DNA of 64,000 nucleotides from Oceanospirillaceae bacterium (GCA_018647765.1 JABGSN010000030.1:549-64548); one strand, 5' to 3'. Counted from the stretch's first letter, positions 55,721-64,000 are shown. The notes: a model not told the origin generated them from the letters alone. Numbers and translations are program-made.

Positions 55721-56275
55721 TTAACCAATGGGTGTGGTGCGCCCAGAGTCGGCGTCGCCTAAGTATAAGTTAAAGCGCCCACTTTGACGTTCACTTGCGT
55801 GACGTTTGAGCATGGTTTTTATGGCGGGGTAGGCCAGCAGGTGCCAGGGCACTTGGTCTGCTTTAAACCACTGAACCGCGCTTGATTCTAGCCCCATGGG
55901 CTGGGTTTGGGCGACAAATTGGGCGCGGTAAATAACATATACTTGGTGCATATGGATAACATTGAATACCGAATACAAATCCAAAATTCCGACCTGCATA
56001 CCGGTTTCTTCTAGGGTTTCACGCTGCGCAGCGGCTTCTGTGCTTTCGCCATTTTCCATAAATCCAGCGGCCACAGTCCAGGTGTTTTTTTGTGGTTCGA
56101 TGGCCCTAAGGCACAAGGCAATCTCGTCATCGCGTTCAATAATACAGCCACAAATGATACTGGGGTTATGGTAATGGACTTGCTGGCAGGATGTGCATGT
56201 GAGCCGTGGGTGGGTATCTCCATGGGGCACTTGTAGCTGCAGTTGGTCAGAACCACAATGGCTGCAAAAATTCAT
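55721..56275 (-). CDS. Nudix hydrolase with N-terminal zinc ribbon (NUDX23-like)
   Basis: FCSHCG...CTSC..VHYHNP; intact Nudix box GFMENGESTEAAAQRETLEETG. Confidence 0.9.
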   Translation of the reverse strand: MNFCSHCGSDQLQLQVPHGDTHPRLTCTSCQQVHYHNPSIICGCIIERDDEIALCLRAIEPQKNTWTVAAGFMENGESTEAAAQRETLEETGMQVGILDLYSVFNVIHMHQVYVIYRAQFVAQTQPMGLESSAVQWFKADQVPWHLLAYPAIKTMLKRHASERQSGRFNLYLGDADSGRTTPIG

Positions 56276-56277
56276 GC

Positions 56278-56955
56278 TTAAGCGTTATTGATTTGCTTTA
56301 GAGCAATGGCGCCGGCGGCTTGAACATGGCCTACGCAGGCTTGGCGAGCCGCTTCTGGGTCGCGCTTAGCAATGGCTTGCATAATATTCTGCATTTCAGT
56401 GAGGCTGTCTTCCCATCGTCCCGTTTTGGAGATGGTGCCTGCGCGCAGTACCATGATACGTGCCAGTAGACGATTGAGGCTACTGCCCAGCTCTAAATTG
56501 CCACTGCCTTCGAGTAATTGGTCGTAAAAGTCTTTGGTGCAAGCCAAAATCTCACTCACTTCAGAGCGATCAAATGACTCTTTTAAAGCATTGGTGGTGG
56601 CTTGTAACTGCTGCACTTGTTGGTCCGATGCACGGCTACAAAACAGTTCGCCTGCAAGGCCTTCAAGGGCTGCCCTTAGTTCATAAATGTTCTTCACATC
56701 TACGGCGTCGAGCACAGTAACGCTGGGGCCACGTTGGCCTGCGTATTGCACTAAACCTTCGGATTCTAAATGACGTAAGGCTTCGCGTACGGAGGTACGG
56801 CTCACGTCCAGCACTTTGCATAACTCGCGTTCGACCAGTCGTTGGCCGGGTTTAAGTTGGGTGCTGATTATCGCATCACGTAACTTATCCAATACAATTT
56901 GACGTAGAGTAATGGTGTTACGGGTGACTTTTAGGTTGGTGAGATTGGCGACCAC
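56278..56955 (-). CDS. GntR/FCD family transcriptional regulator
   Basis: LKPGQRLVERELC..LDVSRTSVREALRHLESEGLV; YELRAALEG FCD domain. Confidence 0.92.
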   Translation of the reverse strand: MVANLTNLKVTRNTITLRQIVLDKLRDAIISTQLKPGQRLVERELCKVLDVSRTSVREALRHLESEGLVQYAGQRGPSVTVLDAVDVKNIYELRAALEGLAGELFCSRASDQQVQQLQATTNALKESFDRSEVSEILACTKDFYDQLLEGSGNLELGSSLNRLLARIMVLRAGTISKTGRWEDSLTEMQNIMQAIAKRDPEAARQACVGHVQAAGAIALKQINNA

Positions 56956-56958
56956 GAG

Positions 56959-57369
56959 TTAACACTCAGCCTGTTTTTCAGCGGCCATTTCACTGATGAC
57001 TTCTCGCGCGGTGCGAAACGCATCAATGGAGGCTGGTACACCGCAATAAATAGCCGACTGTAATAACACTTCACGAATCTCATCTTGGCTACAACCATTG
57101 TTAAAGGCACCACGGATGTGTAGCTTTAGTTCATGGGGGCGATTTAACGCTGTAATCATGGCGAGGTTAATGAGGCTTCGGGTTTGCTTAGGCAAACCCT
57201 CTCGGTTCCAGATACTGTCCCAGCAATATTCGGTCACTAGCTCTTGCAAGGGCCAAGTAAAGTCATCGGCAGCAGCAATGGATGCGTCAACGTAGGCGTC
57301 ACCTAACACTGCTTTACGGGTTTTTAGTCCGGCTTCAAACTTGTCTGAACGGGCTTGCTGGTCTGTCAT
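56959..57369 (-). CDS. Carboxymuconolactone decarboxylase (PcaC/CMD) family protein
   Basis: GLKTRKAVLG..YVD, WDSIWNREGL, ELKLHIRGA..NG, IYCGVPA. Confidence 0.88.
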   Translation of the reverse strand: MTDQQARSDKFEAGLKTRKAVLGDAYVDASIAAADDFTWPLQELVTEYCWDSIWNREGLPKQTRSLINLAMITALNRPHELKLHIRGAFNNGCSQDEIREVLLQSAIYCGVPASIDAFRTAREVISEMAAEKQAEC

Positions 57370-57401
57370 CTGGATCTCTCATTGCGATGGTGTCTGGTGG
57401 T

Positions 57402-58853
57402 TTATAAACCACCCATTAACATGTATTTAATTTCTAAGAAGTCTTCAATGCCGTAATGGGATCCTTCGCGGCCCATACCTGATTCTTTGACGCCACCAAA
57501 CGGTGCCACTTCGGTAGAGATTATGCCTTCGTTGATGCCTACAATACCATATTCTAAGCCTTCACCGACACGCCATACGCGGCCAATGTCGCGAGTATAG
57601 AAATAGGCGGCTAAACCAAACTCGGTGTCGTTGGCCATAGCGATGGCTTGCGCTTCGTCTTTAAACTTAAAGATGGGGGCTAGGGGGCCAAATGTTTCTT
57701 CGGTGGCCACTTTCATGTCGGTGGTGACGTTACTAATGATGGTTGGCGTAAAGAAACTGCCGCCTAAGGCGTGGCTGTCACCACCACACACCAAACTGCC
57801 GCCCTTGCTGAGGGCGTCTTCAATGTGCTCTTTGACTTTATCTATGGCACCTTGGTTGATCATAGGACCTTGGGTTACGCCCTCATCCATACCGTTGCCA
57901 ACTTGTAACTCGGCCACTTTGGCGGCAAATTTCTCGACAAAGGCGTCATGCACACCTTCTTGTACGATAAAGCGGTTAACACAAACACAGGTTTGGCCAG
58001 CGTTGCGGTATTTGCCGGCAATAGCACCGGCCACTGCAGCATCTAAATCGGCGTCATCAAACACGATAAACGGCGCATTGCCGCCTAGTTCTAACGACAC
58101 TTTCTTTAAGGTTGGCGCACATTGCTGCATCAACAATTTGCCCACGGGCGTCGAACCAGTAAAGGTGAGCTTACGCACTGTAGGGTTGCTGGTGAGCTCG
58201 GCACCAATGGGTCTAGACTTGCCCGTAATCACGTTAAATACGCCAGCAGGAATGCCCGCTTCTTCTGCTAATACGGCCAAGGCTAAGGCAGAGAAAGGCG
58301 TCTCTGCCGCAGGGCGTACAACAAAGCCACAGCCCGCTGCTAATGCAGGGCCACATTTGCGGGTGATCATGGCAGCAGGAAAGTTCCAAGGCGTAATGGC
58401 AGCAACGACACCAATCGGTTCTTTGGTGACAACAATACGAGCATCGGCTTTATGGGTGGGGATAATATCGCCGTAGGTGCGTTTGCCTTCTTCGGCAAAC
58501 CATTCGATAAAGCTAGCGGCATAGGCGATTTCGCCTTTGGCTTCGTTAAGGGGTTTGCCTTGCTCTAAGGTCATGATTTTACCAAGGTCATCTTGGTTGG
58601 CCATAATTAAGTCAAACCAGTGACGCAAGGTAACCGCACGTTGTTTGGCCGTGAGTTTGCGCCAGCTAATCATAGCCACGCGTGCTGCTTCTATGGCGCG
58701 CGCGGTTTCTACCCCAGTCATATCCGGAATGCTACCTAGCACTTCACCGTTTGCGGGGTTGGTTACTTCGATGGTGGCGTTCGAATCAGCGTCTAGCCAA
58801 GTACCGTTGATGTAGGCTTGTTGGCGAAATAAGGCGGGGTTGGCTAGTTGCAT
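57402..58853 (-). CDS. gabD: NAD(P)-dependent succinate-semialdehyde dehydrogenase
   Basis: WFAEEGKRTYGDIIP, ITPWNFPAAMITRK, LELGGNAP, RNAGQTCVC, GREGS.YGIE. Confidence 0.92.
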   Translation of the reverse strand: MQLANPALFRQQAYINGTWLDADSNATIEVTNPANGEVLGSIPDMTGVETARAIEAARVAMISWRKLTAKQRAVTLRHWFDLIMANQDDLGKIMTLEQGKPLNEAKGEIAYAASFIEWFAEEGKRTYGDIIPTHKADARIVVTKEPIGVVAAITPWNFPAAMITRKCGPALAAGCGFVVRPAAETPFSALALAVLAEEAGIPAGVFNVITGKSRPIGAELTSNPTVRKLTFTGSTPVGKLLMQQCAPTLKKVSLELGGNAPFIVFDDADLDAAVAGAIAGKYRNAGQTCVCVNRFIVQEGVHDAFVEKFAAKVAELQVGNGMDEGVTQGPMINQGAIDKVKEHIEDALSKGGSLVCGGDSHALGGSFFTPTIISNVTTDMKVATEETFGPLAPIFKFKDEAQAIAMANDTEFGLAAYFYTRDIGRVWRVGEGLEYGIVGINEGIISTEVAPFGGVKESGMGREGSHYGIEDFLEIKYMLMGGL

Positions 58854-58983
58854 GGGGTCAATCCTGTAGTTAAAAATAGCAAGTTGCTAGGTGTGCTTTA
58901 TATTACATTAAATTGTTCAATATATTAAACGCTTCAGGGCGACATTTATATTAAAATGTTAACTAAAGTGATGTCGCCTGTCA

Positions 58984-60477
58984 TCACCGCATTATAAATG
59001 GATCCGCCATCGGTTCGCTAGACGTATTGATCCAGACGGTTTTGAGCTGCGTGTAATCTTTTACACCATCTATACCGCTCTCTCGGCCATAACCACTGGC
59101 CTTAAAACCACCGATGGCGCCCATGGGCGATACGGCACGATATGTGTTGACCCAAATGATACCGGCTTGTACGGCTTTGCTCATGCGGTGCACACGGGCG
59201 TTGTCGCGGGTCCAAATGCCTGCAGCCAAACCAAACGCACTGTCGTTGGCAAGCGCAAGGGCATGGGCTTCGTCGCTAAAGCGCATGATGCTGGCAACCG
59301 GGCCAAAGACTTCCTCTTGCATAATACTGCACTGGTTAGACTCAACGGCAAGGATGGTCGGTTGATAATACCAGCCATCTCCAGCCACTGACGCACGTTG
59401 ACCGCCGTGTATTAATTGCGCACCTTGGGCTAATGCAGACGCTACCATTCGCTCTACTAAGGCGAGTTGGGGCTGGGTTGCCATGGGGCCCATTTCTGAA
59501 CTCGGGTCCATGGGGTCGCCAATGACGATGTTGGCCACCCGTGTTTTTAGTGCGTTCAGGAACTCATCGTACACGGCGTCTTGCACGAGCAAGCGGCTAC
59601 CTGCCACACAGCTTTGGCCCGAGGCTGCAAAAATGCCCGCGATCACGCCGTTCACGGCGCTGCCTATGTCGGCATCATCAAAGATGATGTTGGGGGATTT
59701 TCCACCTAACTCTAAGCTCAACTGAGCTAAGTTTTCTGCACTATTTTTAACTACGGCTTTGGCGCCTTGGCCACCGCCGGTAAAGGCAATACGACGTACT
59801 AAGGGATGTTTGGTTAGGGCCGAACCCGTGTCGGCACCAAAACCGGTCACTACGTTCACCACACCGTCCGGGAAGCCGGCTTGTTTGACTAAATGCATCA
59901 GCTCAACAATAGTCGCAGAGGCATGCTCGGAAGGTTTGAGTACCACTGTGTTGCCAGCTGCTAAGGCGGGGGCTAGTTTAACCGCCGTTAGGTACATGGG
60001 TGAATTCCACGGAATAATGGCCGCTACCACGCCCAATGGCTCATGGCTGGTGTAGGCGAACATGTCGCTTTTGTCTAACGGTAGTGTTTGGCCTTCTAGT
60101 TTATCGGCCTGGCCCGCGTAGTAATAGAAGAACTCGGGCATGTAGCCTATTTGGCCTAGTGTTTCGCGTATCAGTTTGCCATTGTCGTTGCTTTCTAATT
60201 GTGCCAAACGTTGTTTGCTGGCGGCGATCAAATCCCCCAGTTTACGTAATAATTTGCCCCGTGCCGTGGCGTGTAGGCTGCGCCACGTTGGGTTTTCAAA
60301 GGCATTTTGTGCCGCTTGCACGGCGGCATCGACATCGGCTTCCTGCGCGTGTGGAAAACTCGCCCATGGTTGCGCGTTAGCCGGGTTTAAACTATCAAAG
60401 CGGCTGCCATCTTGTGCATCTAGCCATTGGCCATTGATGAACATTTGATATTGTTTAAGGGACTGAGTTGTGGCCAT
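58984..60477 (-). CDS. Aldehyde dehydrogenase (TgnC-like)
   Basis: NDNGKLIRET, IIPWNSP, LELGGKSP, ASGQSCVAGSR, WVNTYRAVSP. Confidence 0.85.
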   Translation of the reverse strand: MATTQSLKQYQMFINGQWLDAQDGSRFDSLNPANAQPWASFPHAQEADVDAAVQAAQNAFENPTWRSLHATARGKLLRKLGDLIAASKQRLAQLESNDNGKLIRETLGQIGYMPEFFYYYAGQADKLEGQTLPLDKSDMFAYTSHEPLGVVAAIIPWNSPMYLTAVKLAPALAAGNTVVLKPSEHASATIVELMHLVKQAGFPDGVVNVVTGFGADTGSALTKHPLVRRIAFTGGGQGAKAVVKNSAENLAQLSLELGGKSPNIIFDDADIGSAVNGVIAGIFAASGQSCVAGSRLLVQDAVYDEFLNALKTRVANIVIGDPMDPSSEMGPMATQPQLALVERMVASALAQGAQLIHGGQRASVAGDGWYYQPTILAVESNQCSIMQEEVFGPVASIMRFSDEAHALALANDSAFGLAAGIWTRDNARVHRMSKAVQAGIIWVNTYRAVSPMGAIGGFKASGYGRESGIDGVKDYTQLKTVWINTSSEPMADPFIMR

Positions 60478-60507
60478 TATGCCGCTCCTACACTGGGTAT
60501 TAAATAA

Positions 60508-61329
60508 TTACAGGTTATGCCGTGCCAAAAAATCGGCTAAGCATTGATTGACTTGGTTTGCATTTTCTACGGGCATCATGTGCCGAGCCGCGGTGATAAT
60601 ATGGGTGCTAGCCCCTTCAATTTTGTCTGCCAATGCATGACTCATGGTGGGCGTTGAACCTGGATCTAAGGCCCCTGTCATCACTAACGTTGGACAGCTG
60701 ATTTGGTCTAGCTGCGCTGCAGCAGCGTTATCGCCTTCGCCAAATAATCGGTAACAGCGGCTGTAGCTGGGCCGGTGGTTGTTTAACACCTTGTTACGCA
60801 GCTGCACCATATACGCTGGGTTAGCTCTAGCATACGCTGGGCTAAACCAACGTTCTAGTGCCTGATCAATATTGGCGCTGGGGCCATGTTGGTCCACCTG
60901 TGCGATGCGATAGAGAATGGCAGACCTTAATTGGGCGCTGCGGTTGAACACCGAGTTCATAATGACTAGGCTGTTGAGCCGCTCATTGTGAGCAGTGGCA
61001 AATACGCGGGCCACCAAACCACCCAAAGAAAACCCCACTAAGTTCACCTTGGGTAACTGCAAATGATCCATCAGCTGCAGTAACTGTTGGGCAAGGGTGG
61101 CTAAATCGGTTGCTGGCGTTGCATGCTGACTTAAGCCATGGCCGGTGAGGTCGTAGGTGAGCACTTGGTAATTTGAGGTAAGGGAACGCACTTGGCTTTG
61201 CCACATGGTGTGGTCTAAACCCACGCCATGGACCAGCACTATAGTGGGTTTGGTTGTGTCTCCAAACACCTGGTAATGGGTCCCTTGGTGCATTTTGAGT
61301 GGCAAACTTACACGGCCTTCTGCAGACAT
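60508..61329 (-). CDS. Alpha/beta hydrolase (TgnD-like)
   Basis: LVHGVGLD, VGFSLGG nucleophile elbow, TGALDPGSTP, RHMMPVE. Confidence 0.85.
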   Translation of the reverse strand: MSAEGRVSLPLKMHQGTHYQVFGDTTKPTIVLVHGVGLDHTMWQSQVRSLTSNYQVLTYDLTGHGLSQHATPATDLATLAQQLLQLMDHLQLPKVNLVGFSLGGLVARVFATAHNERLNSLVIMNSVFNRSAQLRSAILYRIAQVDQHGPSANIDQALERWFSPAYARANPAYMVQLRNKVLNNHRPSYSRCYRLFGEGDNAAAAQLDQISCPTLVMTGALDPGSTPTMSHALADKIEGASTHIITAARHMMPVENANQVNQCLADFLARHNL

Positions 61330-61928
61330 TAGGCTTCTGCTGTGGCTTTTTCTGCGGCGATTTCTTCCAAGTCCATATAGCGGTTACCAATGCGTGGGTG
61401 TGCACGGCCGCCATCGGAGCCGCCTAATACAACGATGATTTCATCGGCTGCGGGGGCGTCTTCAATATGCATTTCTAAGGTAATGTAGTGAGAGCGGAAT
61501 CCCGCATCATCTTTGTGCATCATTGGGATTTGAATGGAGGTGCCGGCAGGGCCACGCTTGTTGGTGAAGCTTAAGTAACTTTGGGCATTCACTGCGTCAC
61601 GGAAGTGGTTACCAAAACGTAGAGTGTGAATGATGCCGGAGGCATGCTCAATTTCGCCATTTAAACCAATTACAGCGGCTTTGCCGTAGGCTTCGATCGC
61701 GTCGCCACTGGGGAAGTGAGACAAAATAGCTGCCACCATTTCTGCGCCCAATTGGGAGCAACCAGCGGTGATTTCTGGGCGTAGGTTTTCAACAAACCCT
61801 TGGCCTGCCCATGGGTTCTTAATCACATAAGCCACGCCCACCATTTTAATCGGGGTGGCTGCTGCTTTGCCGCCTTCAATGCGGGTTTCTTCGATGTGGG
61901 TAACGACTTTTCTGACTTCAAAATACAT
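61329..61928 (-). CDS. Amino-acid-synthesis family (DUF1185/AA_synth) protein (TgnF-like)
   Basis: VIKNPWAG.GFVENL, EAYGKAAVIGLNGEIEHAS, FGNHFR, DAPAADEI, GRAHPRIG. Confidence 0.85.
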   Translation of the reverse strand: MYFEVRKVVTHIEETRIEGGKAAATPIKMVGVAYVIKNPWAGQGFVENLRPEITAGCSQLGAEMVAAILSHFPSGDAIEAYGKAAVIGLNGEIEHASGIIHTLRFGNHFRDAVNAQSYLSFTNKRGPAGTSIQIPMMHKDDAGFRSHYITLEMHIEDAPAADEIIVVLGGSDGGRAHPRIGNRYMDLEEIAAEKATAEA

Positions 61929-61932
61929 GGTC

Positions 61933-62976
61933 TTATTCCTGATTAAAATTGGGCATCACTTTGTCTATAAATAACTGTAACGACTTTTTCTTTTCGGCAT
62001 GGGGTAGGCCGTTGTCACTCCAGAAGCTAAATTGGGTAATGCCAAGGTTTTCATAATGTTTGATACGCTGGGTCACTTCTGTGGGCGTGCCAATGAGTAA
62101 ATTTTGGTGGAGTTCGTCCAGATCAAAACCCGGCATCTCGCTCATTTGGGTATCGGTAAGGGGTTTCACAAAACCATCTACAGGCTCTTGGTCATTTTTG
62201 AACCACGCGTAAAAATAGCCGTACCAATCGCGTAGGGCCTGGGCACCTTTGCGCCAATCTTCGCCTTCTTCGTGGACCCATGTATGGCGTAGGGCGAGTA
62301 ATTGTGGCGTGGGTTTTTCTGGGTTGTTAATACACGCCTGTTTAAAACGTTGACTAGCCATTTCTATCACCGCGTCACCGGCAATCAGTGGCGTCACCAT
62401 TACGTTACAGTCACTGCTCACTGCATAGTCGTGGGATTCTTGTTCACGGGCCGCCACCCACATGGGGGGGAAGGGTTTTTGCGTGACACGAGGAATGGCC
62501 GTAGAGGTTGGAAATGAGTAATGCTCACCTTCGTGGGCGTAGTCTCCGGTCCACAATTTCTGTAGGGCAGGGATCATTTCTCGTAACGGGCCGCCGCCTT
62601 CTTTAGCGGGCATCTTGTCGGTCATGCGGTCAAATTCAGACTGATAGGCACCACGAGCAATGCCAAAATCCAAGCGGCCGTTGCTCATCATGTCGACCAA
62701 TGAGGCTTCACTGGCCAACCGTACTGGATTCCAAAAGGGCGCAACAATGGTGCCTAAACCTAAGCGAATGGTTTTAGTAATAGGTGCTAGGTAAGCCATA
62801 AAGTTAAGTGGGTTGGGGGATATGGTAAATTCCATCATGTGATGCTCACCGATCCAAACCGTTTCAAAACCTGCTTCTTCCGCCATTAATGTGAGTTCTA
62901 CCAACTCATCGAAGAGCTCCTTATGGGGCTTGGCTGGATCCGATCGTTCCATGTGCAGGAATAGAGAAAATTTCAT
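61933..62976 (-). CDS. LLM-class (luciferase-like) flavin-dependent monooxygenase (TgnB-like)
   Basis: MKFSLFLHMER, VWIGEHH.MEFTISP, ARGAYQSEFDRM, FPTSTAIPR, FSFWSDNGLPHAEKKKSL. Confidence 0.85.
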   Translation of the reverse strand: MKFSLFLHMERSDPAKPHKELFDELVELTLMAEEAGFETVWIGEHHMMEFTISPNPLNFMAYLAPITKTIRLGLGTIVAPFWNPVRLASEASLVDMMSNGRLDFGIARGAYQSEFDRMTDKMPAKEGGGPLREMIPALQKLWTGDYAHEGEHYSFPTSTAIPRVTQKPFPPMWVAAREQESHDYAVSSDCNVMVTPLIAGDAVIEMASQRFKQACINNPEKPTPQLLALRHTWVHEEGEDWRKGAQALRDWYGYFYAWFKNDQEPVDGFVKPLTDTQMSEMPGFDLDELHQNLLIGTPTEVTQRIKHYENLGITQFSFWSDNGLPHAEKKKSLQLFIDKVMPNFNQE

Positions 62977-63016
62977 GTTGCAGTCCCCCGAGAGGCAGAT
63001 TCGTTAATTTGTATTA

Positions 63017-63026
63017 TGGTATACCA
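63017..63026. promoter_or_regulatory. Candidate GntR/FadR-type operator upstream of the LLM operon
   Basis: TGGTATACCA palindrome about 40 bp upstream of the ATG, fits the T.GT...AC.A consensus. Confidence 0.55.
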
Positions 63027-63188
63027 AAAAACTTAGGCGGTGAATTTCAACATTGCTGGCTTATGAAGTCAAGAGTCCAGTTGCGCAGGGTTGGGTGGAG
63101 TGGGTGAAAATTAGCAAGTGGTGATTTAGTTTTACTTAGCGGCGATGGAGCTCAAGGTGGGTTGCTCCATCGTCACTTGAGCTAGGCC

Positions 63189-64000
63189 TTATGTAATCGC
63201 TTTGCAGGCACGGCTAAGCCCAATCCAAAGGCTGACGCACATCAGCAGCAAGACAATGGTGAACGGCAAACCGGTGGACACGGCCATGGCTTGCAGGGCA
63301 CCTAAGGCTTCTGAGCCACCCACTAATAATAATACAGCGGCCACCAAACCTTCAAACGAACACCAAAACACCCTTTGCGAAACCGGTGCGTCGGTTTTTC
63401 CGCCGGCGGTGATGGTATCGATCACCAAAGAACCTGAGTCTGAGGAAGTCACAAAGAATACCAGCACCAAGACGATGCCGATGAGTGACAAGAGTCCAGA
63501 TAAGGGGAATGGTTCGAGCATATGGAACAACTTAATTTCTTGCGCTACCGCGGCTACTGGGGCGCTAGTATCTGCAATCACTTGAGAGAGGGCAGTACCG
63601 CCAAACGTGGCCATCCACACAATACACAAAATGGTAGGTACCAAAATGACACAAATTAAGAATTCACGCACGGTACGACCCCAAGAAACACGGGCGATAA
63701 ACATGCCTACAAAGGGAGACCATGAGATCCACCAGGCCCAATAAAACGAAGTCCAGCCTTGTGAAAAGTTGGTATCTTCACGACCAAAGGGCATAGATAG
63801 AGGTATGAACTCGGTGATGTAAGCGGTAGCGCTAGAGAAGAGGGTGGTGATTATGTCTTTGGTGGGCCCAACTAAAAAAATAAAGGCCAGTAATATCAGT
63901 GCTAGAGCCATATTTAATTCGGACAATAATTTCACACCACCATCTAATCCACGAATGACCGAGGCGATGGCAATGGCAGAAATAAAGGTGATCAACACTA
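63189..64000 (-). CDS. BCCT family (betaine/carnitine/choline) transporter, 5' end outside the window
   Basis: WTSFYWAWWISWSPFVGMFIARVS.GRTVREF, FFVTSSDSGSLV, GLPF. Confidence 0.93.
   Translation of the reverse strand, partial: VLITFISAIAIASVIRGLDGGVKLLSELNMALALILLAFIFLVGPTKDIITTLFSSATAYITEFIPLSMPFGREDTNFSQGWTSFYWAWWISWSPFVGMFIARVSWGRTVREFLICVILVPTILCIVWMATFGGTALSQVIADTSAPVAAVAQEIKLFHMLEPFPLSGLLSLIGIVLVLVFFVTSSDSGSLVIDTITAGGKTDAPVSQRVFWCSFEGLVAAVLLLVGGSEALGALQAMAVSTGLPFTIVLLLMCVSLWIGLSRACKAIT

What the first reader, a model, noticed from the sequence alone, without database searches (positions are those of the whole stretch)
55721..64000. Trigonelline/homarine-type N-methylpyridinium catabolic operon in an expanded form
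Seen on one strand: BCCT, LLM monooxygenase, AA_synth protein, alpha/beta hydrolase, ALDH, gabD, CMD, GntR, Nudix, mostly with gaps of 4 bp or less apart from the ALDH-gabD gap (130 bp) and two of about 30 bp. Established: the Acinetobacter baylyi tgn pathway uses a two-component flavin oxygenase, an ALDH, a hydrolase, an SSA dehydrogenase and an accessory hypothetical protein to turn trigonelline into succinate and methylamine; a related hom operon for homarine has been reported in marine bacteria (recalled, not verified). Inference: this locus degrades an algal N-methylpyridinium betaine. gabD points to an SSA-yielding route, but the CMD and Nudix additions suggest an uncharacterised variant or substrate. 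This is the best candidate for new biochemistry in the window.
Basis: partly seen in the sequence, partly recalled or inferred. Interest (0 to 1): 0.75.

Follow-up and report, generated by a model that had tools for sequence, protein, structure and literature searches.

The report
Trigonelline-type breakdown operon, marine version
This is a marine bacterium's copy of the known gene set that opens the ring of the algal and plant compound trigonelline and feeds it into central metabolism as succinate; its "extra" genes are standard in related bacteria, so it is a fairly ordinary member of a known pathway family.

Summary
The nine genes are there, in the stated order, on the minus strand. That gap holds a hairpin, a promoter and a GntR-type operator.

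The eight genes from LLM to Nudix are a tgn-type (trigonelline) catabolic cluster. They comprise TgnB-, TgnF-, TgnD-, TgnC- and TgnE-like enzymes, a PcaC-like CMD protein, a TgnR-like GntR regulator and a Nudix hydrolase.

CMD-GntR-Nudix is not an expansion:
- CMD and GntR occur in 35 of 35 gammaproteobacterial loci that hold the four core genes; Nudix occurs in 31 of 35.
- The canonical-type Acinetobacter baumannii tgn locus also carries CMD, overlapping tgnE.
- The operator TGGTATACCA recurs upstream of cluster genes from Pseudomonas to Sinorhizobium.

The real lineage-specific traits are loss of the TgnA flavin reductase, absence of the TgnP permease, a long-branch LLM (46% identical to the Acinetobacter protein) and a fast-evolving hydrolase.

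The BCCT gene is a separately transcribed neighbour of glycine-betaine type and is absent from close relatives. The homarine (hom) operon uses unrelated enzymes. Marine metatranscriptomes show the operon is expressed.

Verdict: a new member of a known kind. The CMD and Nudix roles remain unassigned.

The parts
61933..62976 (-). LLM (luciferase-like) flavin-dependent monooxygenase; TgnB-like ring-opening oxygenase
   Evidence: PF00296, E 9e-50. Identity: 46% to the A. baumannii tgn-locus LLM, 45% to S. meliloti pSymA, 56-61% to the Pseudomonas and Oceanobacter cluster LLMs. JGI names homologues of this clade 'trigonelline monooxygenase, oxygenase component'. Tree and AU test.
61329..61928 (-). 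AA_synth / DUF1185 protein; TgnF-like helper of the SSA dehydrogenase
   Evidence: PF06684, E 3e-66. 60% identical to the A. baumannii tgn-locus protein. TgnF is reported to stimulate TgnE-dependent SSA oxidation (PMC7913881).
60508..61329 (-). alpha/beta hydrolase; TgnD-like
   Evidence: PF00561. PcaD-like at 180 bits, below the cut-off of 256. GFSLG nucleophile motif intact. Identity: 26-28% to Acinetobacter/Sinorhizobium TgnD-position proteins, 42-48% to Pseudomonas, Oceanobacter and Photobacterium proteins.
58984..60477 (-). aldehyde dehydrogenase; TgnC-like
   Evidence: PF00171, E 4e-168; below every NCBIfam equivalog cut-off. 53-54% identical to the Acinetobacter/Sinorhizobium tgn-locus ALDH and 66-70% to Pseudomonas-type proteins.
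58854..58983 (-). 130-bp AT-rich spacer; candidate internal promoter. Relatives carry the flavin reductase gene at this position
   Evidence: Conserved motifs among Njordibacter-group loci and no remnant ORF. A metatranscriptome contig spans 55951-58973. Oceanobacter, XeTr1, Photobacterium and Pseudomonas have PF01613 here.
57402..58853 (-). NADP-type succinate-semialdehyde dehydrogenase; TgnE-like
   Evidence: TIGR01780 730 bits against a cut-off of 646; NF008415 825 against 828. 64% identical to the A. baumannii tgn-locus SSADH.
56959..57369 (-). CMD-family protein, PcaC-like; conserved accessory of tgn-type clusters; role unassigned
   Evidence: PF02627; TIGR02425 155.5 bits against a cut-off of 155.7. 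64% identical to the CMD gene that overlaps tgnE in A. baumannii, and present in 35 of 35 loci. The genome has no pcaGH or pcaB.
56278..56955 (-). GntR/FCD (FadR-subfamily) regulator; TgnR-like
   Evidence: PF00392 + PF07729. 42% identical to the S. meliloti and 36% to the A. baumannii tgn-locus regulators. The matching palindromic operator is conserved.
55721..56275 (-). Nudix hydrolase with N-terminal zinc ribbon; substrate unknown
   Evidence: PF14803 + PF00293. Nearest solved structure is 3CNG, of unknown function. 42-50% identical to the Nudix that ends the XeTr1, Photobacterium and Pseudomonas clusters. Covered by the same metatranscriptome contig as GntR.
63017..63026 (.). Perfect palindrome TGGTATACCA; predicted GntR (TgnR-like) operator
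   Evidence: One exact copy in the window and two in the genome, the other inside a gene. Conserved upstream of the first cluster genes in Njordibacter-group, XeTr1, Oceanobacter, Photobacterium, Pseudomonas and Competibacteraceae loci. One mismatch in S. meliloti (before tgnF) and A. baumannii (before tgnE).
63044..63072 (-). Predicted sigma-70 promoter: TTGACT, 17-nt spacer, TGAAAT
   Evidence: Read from the sequence. The same -35, spacing and -10 are conserved in L010-L014. Transcript contigs of three metatranscriptomes end at 63005-63026, just downstream.
63134..63182 (-). Stable RNA hairpin directly after the BCCT stop codon (no U-tract)
   Evidence: -20.9 kcal/mol, z -3.7, 0 of 200 shuffles fold as well.
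63189..64000 (-). BCCT transporter (533 aa; continues to about 64790 beyond the window). Neighbour, probably a separate transcription unit and a general betaine carrier
   Evidence: PF02028; full length from the contig. Absent from the loci of the closest relatives. 86%-identical homologues lie beside soxBDAG, ETF and DMGDH. Low metatranscriptome depth.

Best explanation
The eight genes from LLM to Nudix (55721-62976, minus strand) form a tgn-type catabolic cluster. It most likely lets this Njordibacter-like marine gammaproteobacterium use trigonelline (N-methylnicotinate).

Inferred mechanism, by analogy with the Acinetobacter baylyi pathway:
1. The LLM uses reduced FMN and O2 to open the pyridinium ring.
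2. The ALDH oxidises the unstable lactol/aldehyde product to a substituted succinate.
3. The alpha/beta hydrolase splits that into methylamine, formate, CO2 and succinate semialdehyde.
4. The SSA dehydrogenase, helped by the PF06684 protein, makes succinate.

Reduced flavin has to come from a reductase encoded elsewhere, because the cluster has lost its TgnA gene. Two PF01613 genes lie on contig C49.

The GntR/FCD regulator is predicted to repress a promoter in the 212-bp gap by binding the palindrome TGGTATACCA just downstream of the predicted start site. SSADH-CMD-GntR-Nudix appear also to be transcribed from the 130-bp spacer.

Shown here: gene content, homology, conserved synteny, the conserved operator and expression in the sea. 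Inferred: the substrate, each reaction, repression by GntR, and the roles of CMD and Nudix.
For: Families and order.

Identity to the A. baumannii tgn-type locus (tgnR<, F, D, A, B, C, P..., E, CMD): LLM 46%, AA_synth 60%, ALDH 53%, SSADH 64%, CMD 64%, GntR 36%. The S. meliloti pSymA locus gives similar values.

The same architecture (LLM, AA_synth, ABH, ALDH, [reductase], [SSADH], CMD, GntR, Nudix) occurs in Oceanobacter, Oceanospirillales XeTr1, Photobacterium and many Pseudomonas. Pseudomonas clusters carry a permease 56-58% identical to the Acinetobacter tgn-locus NCS1 transporter.

There is one LLM copy per genome in the 7 genomes or records tested. The AU test does not reject a single clade of all tgn-type LLMs that excludes the Aminobacter and Agrobacterium paralogues (p 0.55).

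The operator TGGTATACCA is conserved across proteobacterial tgn-type loci. JGI labels clade members as trigonelline monooxygenase.

Transcript contigs in 3 independent metatranscriptomes begin at 63005-63026.

Pathway facts: TgnA/TgnB open the ring (PMC8269262); TgnF is a PF06684 protein that aids TgnE (PMC7913881). The other steps come from my memory of Perchat et al. 2018, which could not be opened.
Against: - The LLM is only 45-46% identical to the Acinetobacter/Sinorhizobium proteins, which are 72% identical to each other. It sits on a long stem, and the tree backbone is unresolved.
- The hydrolase is only 26-28% identical to the TgnD-position proteins.
- There is no flavin reductase in the cluster and no TgnP-like NCS1 permease anywhere in the genome.
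- Paralogous clusters of the same enzyme families with unknown substrates exist in Aminobacter pSR3 and Agrobacterium pAt, so family membership alone does not fix the substrate.
- I used A. baumannii as a stand-in for A. baylyi ADP1; the ADP1 sequences themselves were not available.
- No experiment links this clade to trigonelline.
Confidence: 0.7

Rival explanations
1. The chemistry is the same, but the substrate is a different N-alkylated pyridinium or related betaine, for example N-methylnicotinamide, a carboxylated N-methylpyridinium or a nicotinate riboside-type compound. The PcaC-like CMD would then remove an extra carboxyl group and the Nudix would process a nucleotide-linked form.
For: - LLM divergence and long stem.
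- Hydrolase only 26-28% identical to canonical TgnD-position proteins, and evolving much faster than its neighbours even within the genus (59% against about 90%).
- No TgnP.
- Paralogous clusters with other partners show that the family has diversified (earlier notes).
- The Arthrobacter version carries Nudix together with riboflavin kinase and an NCS1 permease.
Against: - CMD is also present, 64-76% identical, in the canonical-type Acinetobacter locus, so it does not mark a different substrate.
- The operator is shared with the S. meliloti and Acinetobacter loci.
- Pseudomonas-type clusters use a permease 56-58% identical to the Acinetobacter tgn-locus permease.
- No genome tested holds both a canonical and a Pseudomonas-type LLM.
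Confidence: 0.2
2. A homarine (N-methylpicolinate) catabolic operon of the hom type.
For: Both compounds are algal N-methylpyridinium carboxylates. The paper itself draws an analogy between HomA/HomB and TgnA/TgnB.
Against: The hom operon has a different enzyme set and yields N-methylglutamate and glutamate. It has no LLM, no PF06684 protein and no SSA dehydrogenase.
Confidence: 0.03
3. A fragment of the beta-ketoadipate pathway (PcaD-like hydrolase plus PcaC-like decarboxylase), or a generic GABA/SSA module placed next to unrelated genes.
For: The hydrolase and CMD give their best NCBIfam matches to PcaD and PcaC. CMD scores 155.5 against a cut-off of 155.7.
Against: - The genome has no intradiol dioxygenase (PF00775) and no PcaB above cut-off.
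- The hydrolase is well below the PcaD cut-off (180 against 256).
- Both genes keep conserved positions in tgn-type clusters across many genera.
Confidence: 0.03

Closest known systems
tgn trigonelline cluster of Acinetobacter baylyi ADP1 (Perchat et al. 2018, PNAS 115:E4358), compared here through the syntenic A. baumannii locus L007
   Same: LLM oxygenase, PF06684 protein, alpha/beta hydrolase, ALDH, SSA dehydrogenase, GntR/FCD regulator and a CMD gene next to the SSADH. There is also a near-identical operator word.
   Different: This locus has no TgnA reductase, no TgnP NCS1 permease and no 389-aa unknown protein. Gene order is B-F-D-C-E here rather than F-D-A-B-C-P-E. A Nudix gene is added. 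LLM identity is 46% and hydrolase identity 26%.
Sinorhizobium meliloti pSymA tgn-type locus next to the nod genes (L008)
   Same: The same five enzymes plus a GntR regulator. The operator TGGCATACCA lies before the first gene.
   Different: pSymA has a long-form reductase, a NIPSNAP protein instead of CMD, and an ABC transporter. It has no Nudix.
Annotated-only clusters of Pseudomonas (putida/fluorescens groups), Photobacterium, Oceanobacter mangrovi and Oceanospirillales XeTr1
   Same: Nearest architecture: LLM, AA_synth, ABH, ALDH, (SSADH), CMD, GntR, Nudix, with the exact TGGTATACCA operator. Identities to this locus are 42-74%.
   Different: These clusters keep one or two flavin reductase genes and a dedicated transporter (NCS1 in Pseudomonas, BCCT in Photobacterium). 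Many Pseudomonas lack the SSADH.
Paralogous LLM/AA_synth/ABH/ALDH clusters of Aminobacter pSR3 and Agrobacterium fabrum pAt
   Same: The same enzyme families. The pAt cluster also has CMD and NIPSNAP.
   Different: LLM identity is 40-42%. These clusters are linked to carnitine-like CoA enzymes or to ProU-type betaine transporters. The operator is absent. Their substrates are unknown.
homABCDER homarine operon (Ferrer-Gonzalez et al. 2026, PMC13236597)
   Same: It degrades an isomeric algal N-methylpyridinium carboxylate and is found in marine bacteria.
   Different: Its enzymes are described differently (short FAD-binding HomA, HomB, peptidase-like HomC, ALDH-like HomD) and its products are different. 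No hom sequence was compared here.

Membership tests
tgn (trigonelline) catabolic cluster | LLM-family oxygenase homologous to TgnB | tested here: met
   PF00296. 46% identical over the full length to the A. baumannii tgn-locus LLM; one copy per genome.
tgn (trigonelline) catabolic cluster | The LLM falls inside the TgnB clade rather than a paralogous clade | tested here: inconclusive
   The backbone of the tree is unresolved and the stem is long. The AU test does not reject one tgn-type clade that excludes the Aminobacter/Agrobacterium paralogues (p 0.55).
tgn (trigonelline) catabolic cluster | Partner flavin reductase (TgnA) encoded in the cluster | tested here: not met
   There is no PF01613 gene between 55.7 kb and the xdh genes beyond the BCCT gene. 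The only two copies are on contig C49; one of them is 46% identical to the TgnA reductase domain.
tgn (trigonelline) catabolic cluster | ALDH (TgnC), alpha/beta hydrolase (TgnD) and SSA dehydrogenase (TgnE) | tested here: met
   Identity to the A. baumannii locus proteins is 53%, 26% and 64%. The hydrolase is linked to TgnD through intermediates such as the Competibacteraceae protein (34-48%).
tgn (trigonelline) catabolic cluster | PF06684 accessory protein (TgnF) | tested here: met
   PF06684, E 3e-66; 60% identical to the A. baumannii protein.
tgn (trigonelline) catabolic cluster | GntR-type regulator with its operator | tested here: met
   GntR + FCD domains. TGGTATACCA is conserved across tgn-type loci. 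Binding itself was not tested.
tgn (trigonelline) catabolic cluster | TgnP NCS1 permease | tested here: not met
   tblastn with the Acinetobacter and Arthrobacter permeases finds nothing in the genome at E 1e-5.
tgn (trigonelline) catabolic cluster | Trigonelline is the substrate | not testable with these tools
   This needs growth or enzyme assays.
hom (homarine) operon | HomA/HomB pair, peptidase-like HomC and ALDH-like HomD | tested here: not met
   Only an ALDH is shared. No gene here matches the published descriptions of HomA, HomB or HomC. No sequence comparison was possible.
beta-ketoadipate pathway, protocatechuate branch | pcaGH dioxygenase and pcaB cycloisomerase in the genome; PcaC and PcaD above model cut-offs | tested here: not met
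   No PF00775 hit, and no TIGR02426 hit above cut-off. PcaD model 180 bits against 256; PcaC model 155.5 against 155.7.

The most novel reading that the evidence does not exclude
The conserved small accessory genes are working parts of the trigonelline pathway that the published scheme leaves out.

- The PcaC-like CMD would catalyse the CO2-releasing decarboxylation or tautomerisation of the 2-formylsuccinate-type intermediate that is now credited to the hydrolase.
- A 4-OT tautomerase in Actinobacteria and NIPSNAP in Sinorhizobium and Competibacteraceae would be non-homologous substitutes for CMD.
- The zinc-ribbon Nudix would raise free FMN (for example FAD to FMN + AMP) for the two-component oxygenase, as the riboflavin kinase next to the Nudix in Arthrobacter pDCT5 suggests.
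Probability: 0.2. Interest if true: 0.5.

Novelty: new member of a known kind. Interest (0 to 1): 0.3.

Why it matters
Trigonelline is a common phytoplankton and plant metabolite. Its bacterial sink in the sea is known from gene clusters rather than from marine experiments. This locus shows the pathway in an abundant, small-genome, bloom-associated lineage (Njordibacter-like) and shows that it is transcribed in many marine metatranscriptomes. That makes it a usable marker for trigonelline turnover.

The comparison also gives two practical leads that are not specific to this genome:
- A conserved operator, TGGTATACCA, that defines the regulon across Proteobacteria.
- Two conserved accessory genes, CMD and Nudix, whose roles in the pathway are still unassigned.

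None of this overturns current understanding.

Tried and rejected
- The primary paper (PMC5948990) could not be opened. Searches for ACIAD locus tags and for trigonelline in Pseudomonas found nothing useful. I therefore used the syntenic A. baumannii locus as a stand-in for ADP1.
- Riboswitch-like leader, as earlier notes report for SAR11 variants: Rfam found nothing relevant in 55-64 kb. The gap is explained by a promoter and a protein operator.
- Remnant of the flavin reductase in the 130-bp spacer: no ORF remnant in any frame.
- BCCT as a dedicated trigonelline importer: rejected as shown. Its close homologues lie in glycine-betaine catabolic contexts and it is absent from relatives' loci.
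- The upstream TetR as a cluster regulator: rejected. It has a RutR/YcdC-type C-terminal domain and sits divergent to the xanthine dehydrogenase and guanine deaminase genes.
- Second operator copy in the genome (C12:24977): it lies inside a coding region, and two copies is the chance expectation.
- Beta-ketoadipate reading of the CMD and hydrolase: rejected, because pcaGH and pcaB are absent.
- Lookup of earlier findings by sequence found nothing.

Full report
**1. What is there**

ORF listing and Pfam/NCBIfam scans confirm nine minus-strand genes:

| Gene | Coordinates | Family evidence |
|---|---|---|
| Nudix with zinc ribbon | 55721-56275 | PF14803 + PF00293 |
| GntR/FCD | 56278-56955 | PF00392 + PF07729 |
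| CMD | 56959-57369 | TIGR02425 (PcaC) 155.5 bits against a cut-off of 155.7 |
| SSA dehydrogenase | 57402-58853 | above the TIGR01780 cut-off |
| Second ALDH | 58984-60477 | below every equivalog cut-off |
| alpha/beta hydrolase | 60508-61329 | best match PcaD, below cut-off |
| AA_synth | 61329-61928 | PF06684 |
| LLM monooxygenase | 61933-62976 | PF00296 |
| BCCT transporter | from 63189 | PF02028; leaves the window |

The window is C16:549-64548 of a 2.49-Mb genome. Reading on in the contig gives:
- The BCCT protein is 533 aa.
- A TetR regulator with a RutR/YcdC-type C-terminal domain follows it.
- That TetR gene is divergent to xanthine dehydrogenase and guanine deaminase genes.

No flavin reductase lies anywhere near the cluster. 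The closest named relatives are Candidatus Njordibacter and Oceanospirillaceae MAGs, with the LLM 89-97% identical.

**2. Comparison with known pathways**

The homarine paper (PMC13236597) describes:
- HomA: about 700 nt, FAD-binding.
- HomB: about 1,700 nt.
- HomC: peptidase-like.
- HomD: ALDH-like.
- End products: N-methylglutamate and glutamate.

That is a different enzyme set, so the 'homarine-type' label does not apply.

For trigonelline, held papers confirm two points. TgnA/TgnB open the ring (PMC8269262). TgnF is a PF06684 protein that stimulates the SSA dehydrogenase TgnE (PMC7913881). The primary paper could not be opened, so the remaining steps rest on my memory of it.

A tblastn search of plasmid records returned two reference loci:
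- An A. baumannii chromosome filed as a plasmid. Its locus reads tgnR<, AA_synth, hydrolase, 310-aa flavin reductase, LLM, ALDH, NCS1 permease, a 389-aa unknown, an IS transposase, SSADH, CMD.
- The S. meliloti pSymA locus. It reads GntR, AA_synth, hydrolase, reductase, LLM, ALDH, NIPSNAP, ABC transporter, SSADH.

**3. Is the 'expanded form' special?**

No. A scan of one genome per species returned 80 loci. Their neighbourhoods were classified by BLAST against the window's proteins. Among the 35 loci that hold LLM, AA_synth, hydrolase and ALDH:

| Gene | Loci with it |
|---|---|
| CMD | 35 of 35 |
| GntR | 35 of 35 |
| Nudix | 31 of 35 |
| Flavin reductase | 31 of 35 |

The four loci that lack both Nudix and the reductase are this genome's own close relatives (L010-L014).

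Oceanobacter, Oceanospirillales XeTr1, Photobacterium and many Pseudomonas share the order LLM, AA_synth, hydrolase, ALDH, reductase, (SSADH), CMD, GntR, Nudix.

The CMD gene in the Acinetobacter locus overlaps the end of the SSADH gene. It is 64% identical to ours and 76% identical to that of P. entomophila. CMD and GntR are therefore components of canonical-type clusters too. Nudix is standard in the gammaproteobacterial version and also occurs in Arthrobacter pDCT5, where it sits next to a riboflavin kinase.

**4. Orthology of the oxygenase**

LLM identities:

| Pair | Identity |
|---|---|
| This LLM vs Oceanobacter | 61% |
| vs Pseudomonas | 56% |
| vs Arthrobacter | 54% |
| vs A. baumannii | 46% |
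| vs S. meliloti | 45% |
| A. baumannii vs S. meliloti | 72% |

In a maximum-likelihood tree the Njordibacter group sits on a long stem (0.66) and the backbone is unresolved. Forcing all tgn-type LLMs into one clade, with the Aminobacter pSR3 and Agrobacterium pAt paralogues outside, is not rejected and is marginally better (AU p 0.55).

Each of the seven genomes or records tested has a single copy. JGI already names members of the Pseudomonas/actinobacterial clade 'trigonelline monooxygenase, oxygenase component'.

Identities of the other proteins to the Acinetobacter locus are AA_synth 60%, ALDH 53%, SSADH 64% and hydrolase 26%. The hydrolase is a fast-evolving member throughout: Acinetobacter against Sinorhizobium is 52%, and the Competibacteraceae protein bridges the two groups at 34-48%.

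**5. Regulation and transcription**

The 212-bp gap contains, in order after the BCCT stop codon:
- A hairpin of -20.9 kcal/mol (z -3.7).
- A promoter, TTGACT-17 nt-TGAAAT, at 63072-63044.
- The perfect palindrome TGGTATACCA at 63026-63017, which fits the FadR-subfamily GntR operator type.

The promoter and palindrome are conserved in L010-L014. The exact palindrome recurs upstream of cluster genes in Oceanobacter, XeTr1, Photobacterium, almost all Pseudomonas loci and Competibacteraceae. It recurs with one mismatch before tgnF of S. meliloti and before tgnE of A. baumannii. It is absent from the paralogous and actinobacterial loci. An exact copy is expected about 0.02 times per 21-kb locus. 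In this genome the only other copy lies inside a gene.

Contigs from three independent marine metatranscriptomes end at 63005, 63017 and 63026, just downstream of the predicted start site. They cover the LLM at depth 12-20, while the BCCT gene is at 0-4. A separate 3-kb contig runs from the 130-bp spacer (58973) through SSADH, CMD and GntR into Nudix. Contig depth is only a rough guide, but the picture is of two transcription units plus an independent BCCT gene.

**6. The transporter**

- In L010 nothing lies between the TetR gene and the LLM.
- In L011-L014 an SbmA/BacA-type gene lies there on the other strand.
- Homologues of the BCCT at 86% identity sit beside soxBDAG, ETF and dimethylglycine dehydrogenase genes. 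An 80% homologue in Aliamphritea lies in an unrelated setting.

It is best read as a general glycine-betaine-type carrier that may or may not also admit trigonelline. No TgnP-like permease exists in the genome.

**7. The reductase**

The genome has two PF01613 genes, both on contig C49:
- One is paired with an HpaB-like oxygenase.
- The other is a 310-aa protein. Its reductase domain is 46% identical to that of the Acinetobacter TgnA-position protein, but its C-terminal half is unrelated.

The 130-bp ALDH-SSADH spacer sits exactly where relatives carry the reductase gene. It holds no remnant of that gene.

**8. CMD and Nudix**

The genome lacks pcaGH-type dioxygenases and pcaB, so the PcaC-like CMD does not serve the beta-ketoadipate pathway.

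From memory, the published hydrolase step releases CO2 along with formate, methylamine and SSA. A dedicated decarboxylase or tautomerase for the 2-formylsuccinate-type intermediate is therefore a reasonable but untested role for CMD. Actinobacterial clusters carry a 4-OT tautomerase and Sinorhizobium/Competibacteraceae clusters carry NIPSNAP in comparable positions.

The Nudix has an intact Nudix box. Reading its sequence, I did not find the downstream motif that I recall as typical of NudC-type NADH pyrophosphatases. Its nearest solved structure is 3CNG, an uncharacterised structural-genomics protein. Its link with the reductase (31 of 31 loci against 0 of 4, but a single loss event) and with riboflavin kinase in Arthrobacter hints at FMN supply. 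This is inference only.

**9. Verdict**

This is a tgn-type, most probably trigonelline-degrading, operon of the common gammaproteobacterial architecture. In this lineage it has lost its reductase and dedicated permease, and it is expressed in the sea. It is a new member of a known kind.

The open points are the exact substrate (about 0.2 for something other than trigonelline) and the roles of CMD and Nudix. Both are general to the family rather than particular to this window.

Noticed in passing
window 60508-61329, compared with L010-L014: The alpha/beta hydrolase is only 53-59% identical to that of the Njordibacter relatives, and 86% to the closest MAG. The genes on either side are 88-98% identical. 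The divergence is spread evenly along the gene and the GFSLG motif is intact. This suggests allelic replacement or strongly relaxed or diversifying selection on this one gene.
   Followed up: partly
slot between the TetR gene and the LLM promoter (window 62977 to about 64842; L010-L014): The slot is variable. It holds the BCCT gene here, an SbmA/BacA-family transporter on the opposite strand in four relatives, and nothing in the closest MAG.
   Followed up: partly
G000:C49:52128-58371 (outside the window): A LysR regulator is divergent to an HpaB-like two-component oxygenase. It is followed by a 167-aa flavin reductase, then ORFs that look, by eye only, like a RidA-family protein, a phytanoyl-CoA-dioxygenase-like protein, a DUF1028-like protein and an M20/ArgE-like peptidase. 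This may be another N-compound catabolic cluster. Apart from the reductase, no family scan was run here.
   Followed up: no
G000:C49:29358-33559 (outside the window): A three-gene set that looks like a TctCBA-type tripartite tricarboxylate transporter (not scanned) is followed by a 310-aa protein. That protein has an N-terminal flavin reductase domain 46% identical to the Acinetobacter TgnA domain, joined to an unrelated C-terminal half that looks HTH-like.
   Followed up: partly
L002 1480-8139 (contig just beyond the window end): A RutR/YcdC-type TetR regulator (Pfam scan) is divergent to genes that look like xdhA, xdhB, xdhC and guanine deaminase, that is, a purine catabolic block next to the tgn-type operon. 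The xdh and deaminase labels are by eye only.
   Followed up: no
L006, L032, L045, L053 and many other Pseudomonas loci: Many Pseudomonas species keep only the permease, reductase and LLM, with operator-like sites, at this position. The other cluster genes are several kb away or not within 21 kb, so the cluster is often split or partial.
   Followed up: no
L009 (Arthrobacter dokdonellae plasmid pDCT5): The actinobacterial version carries two AA_synth genes, a 4-OT tautomerase, a riboflavin kinase next to a Nudix gene, and an NCS1 permease, all on a mobilisable plasmid.
   Followed up: no
window 55721-64000: This exact 8.3-kb genotype is present at 96-99% of sampled words in 20 listed marine metagenome runs, and the LLM region in many metatranscriptomes. 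The strain is widespread and the operon is active in situ.
   Followed up: partly
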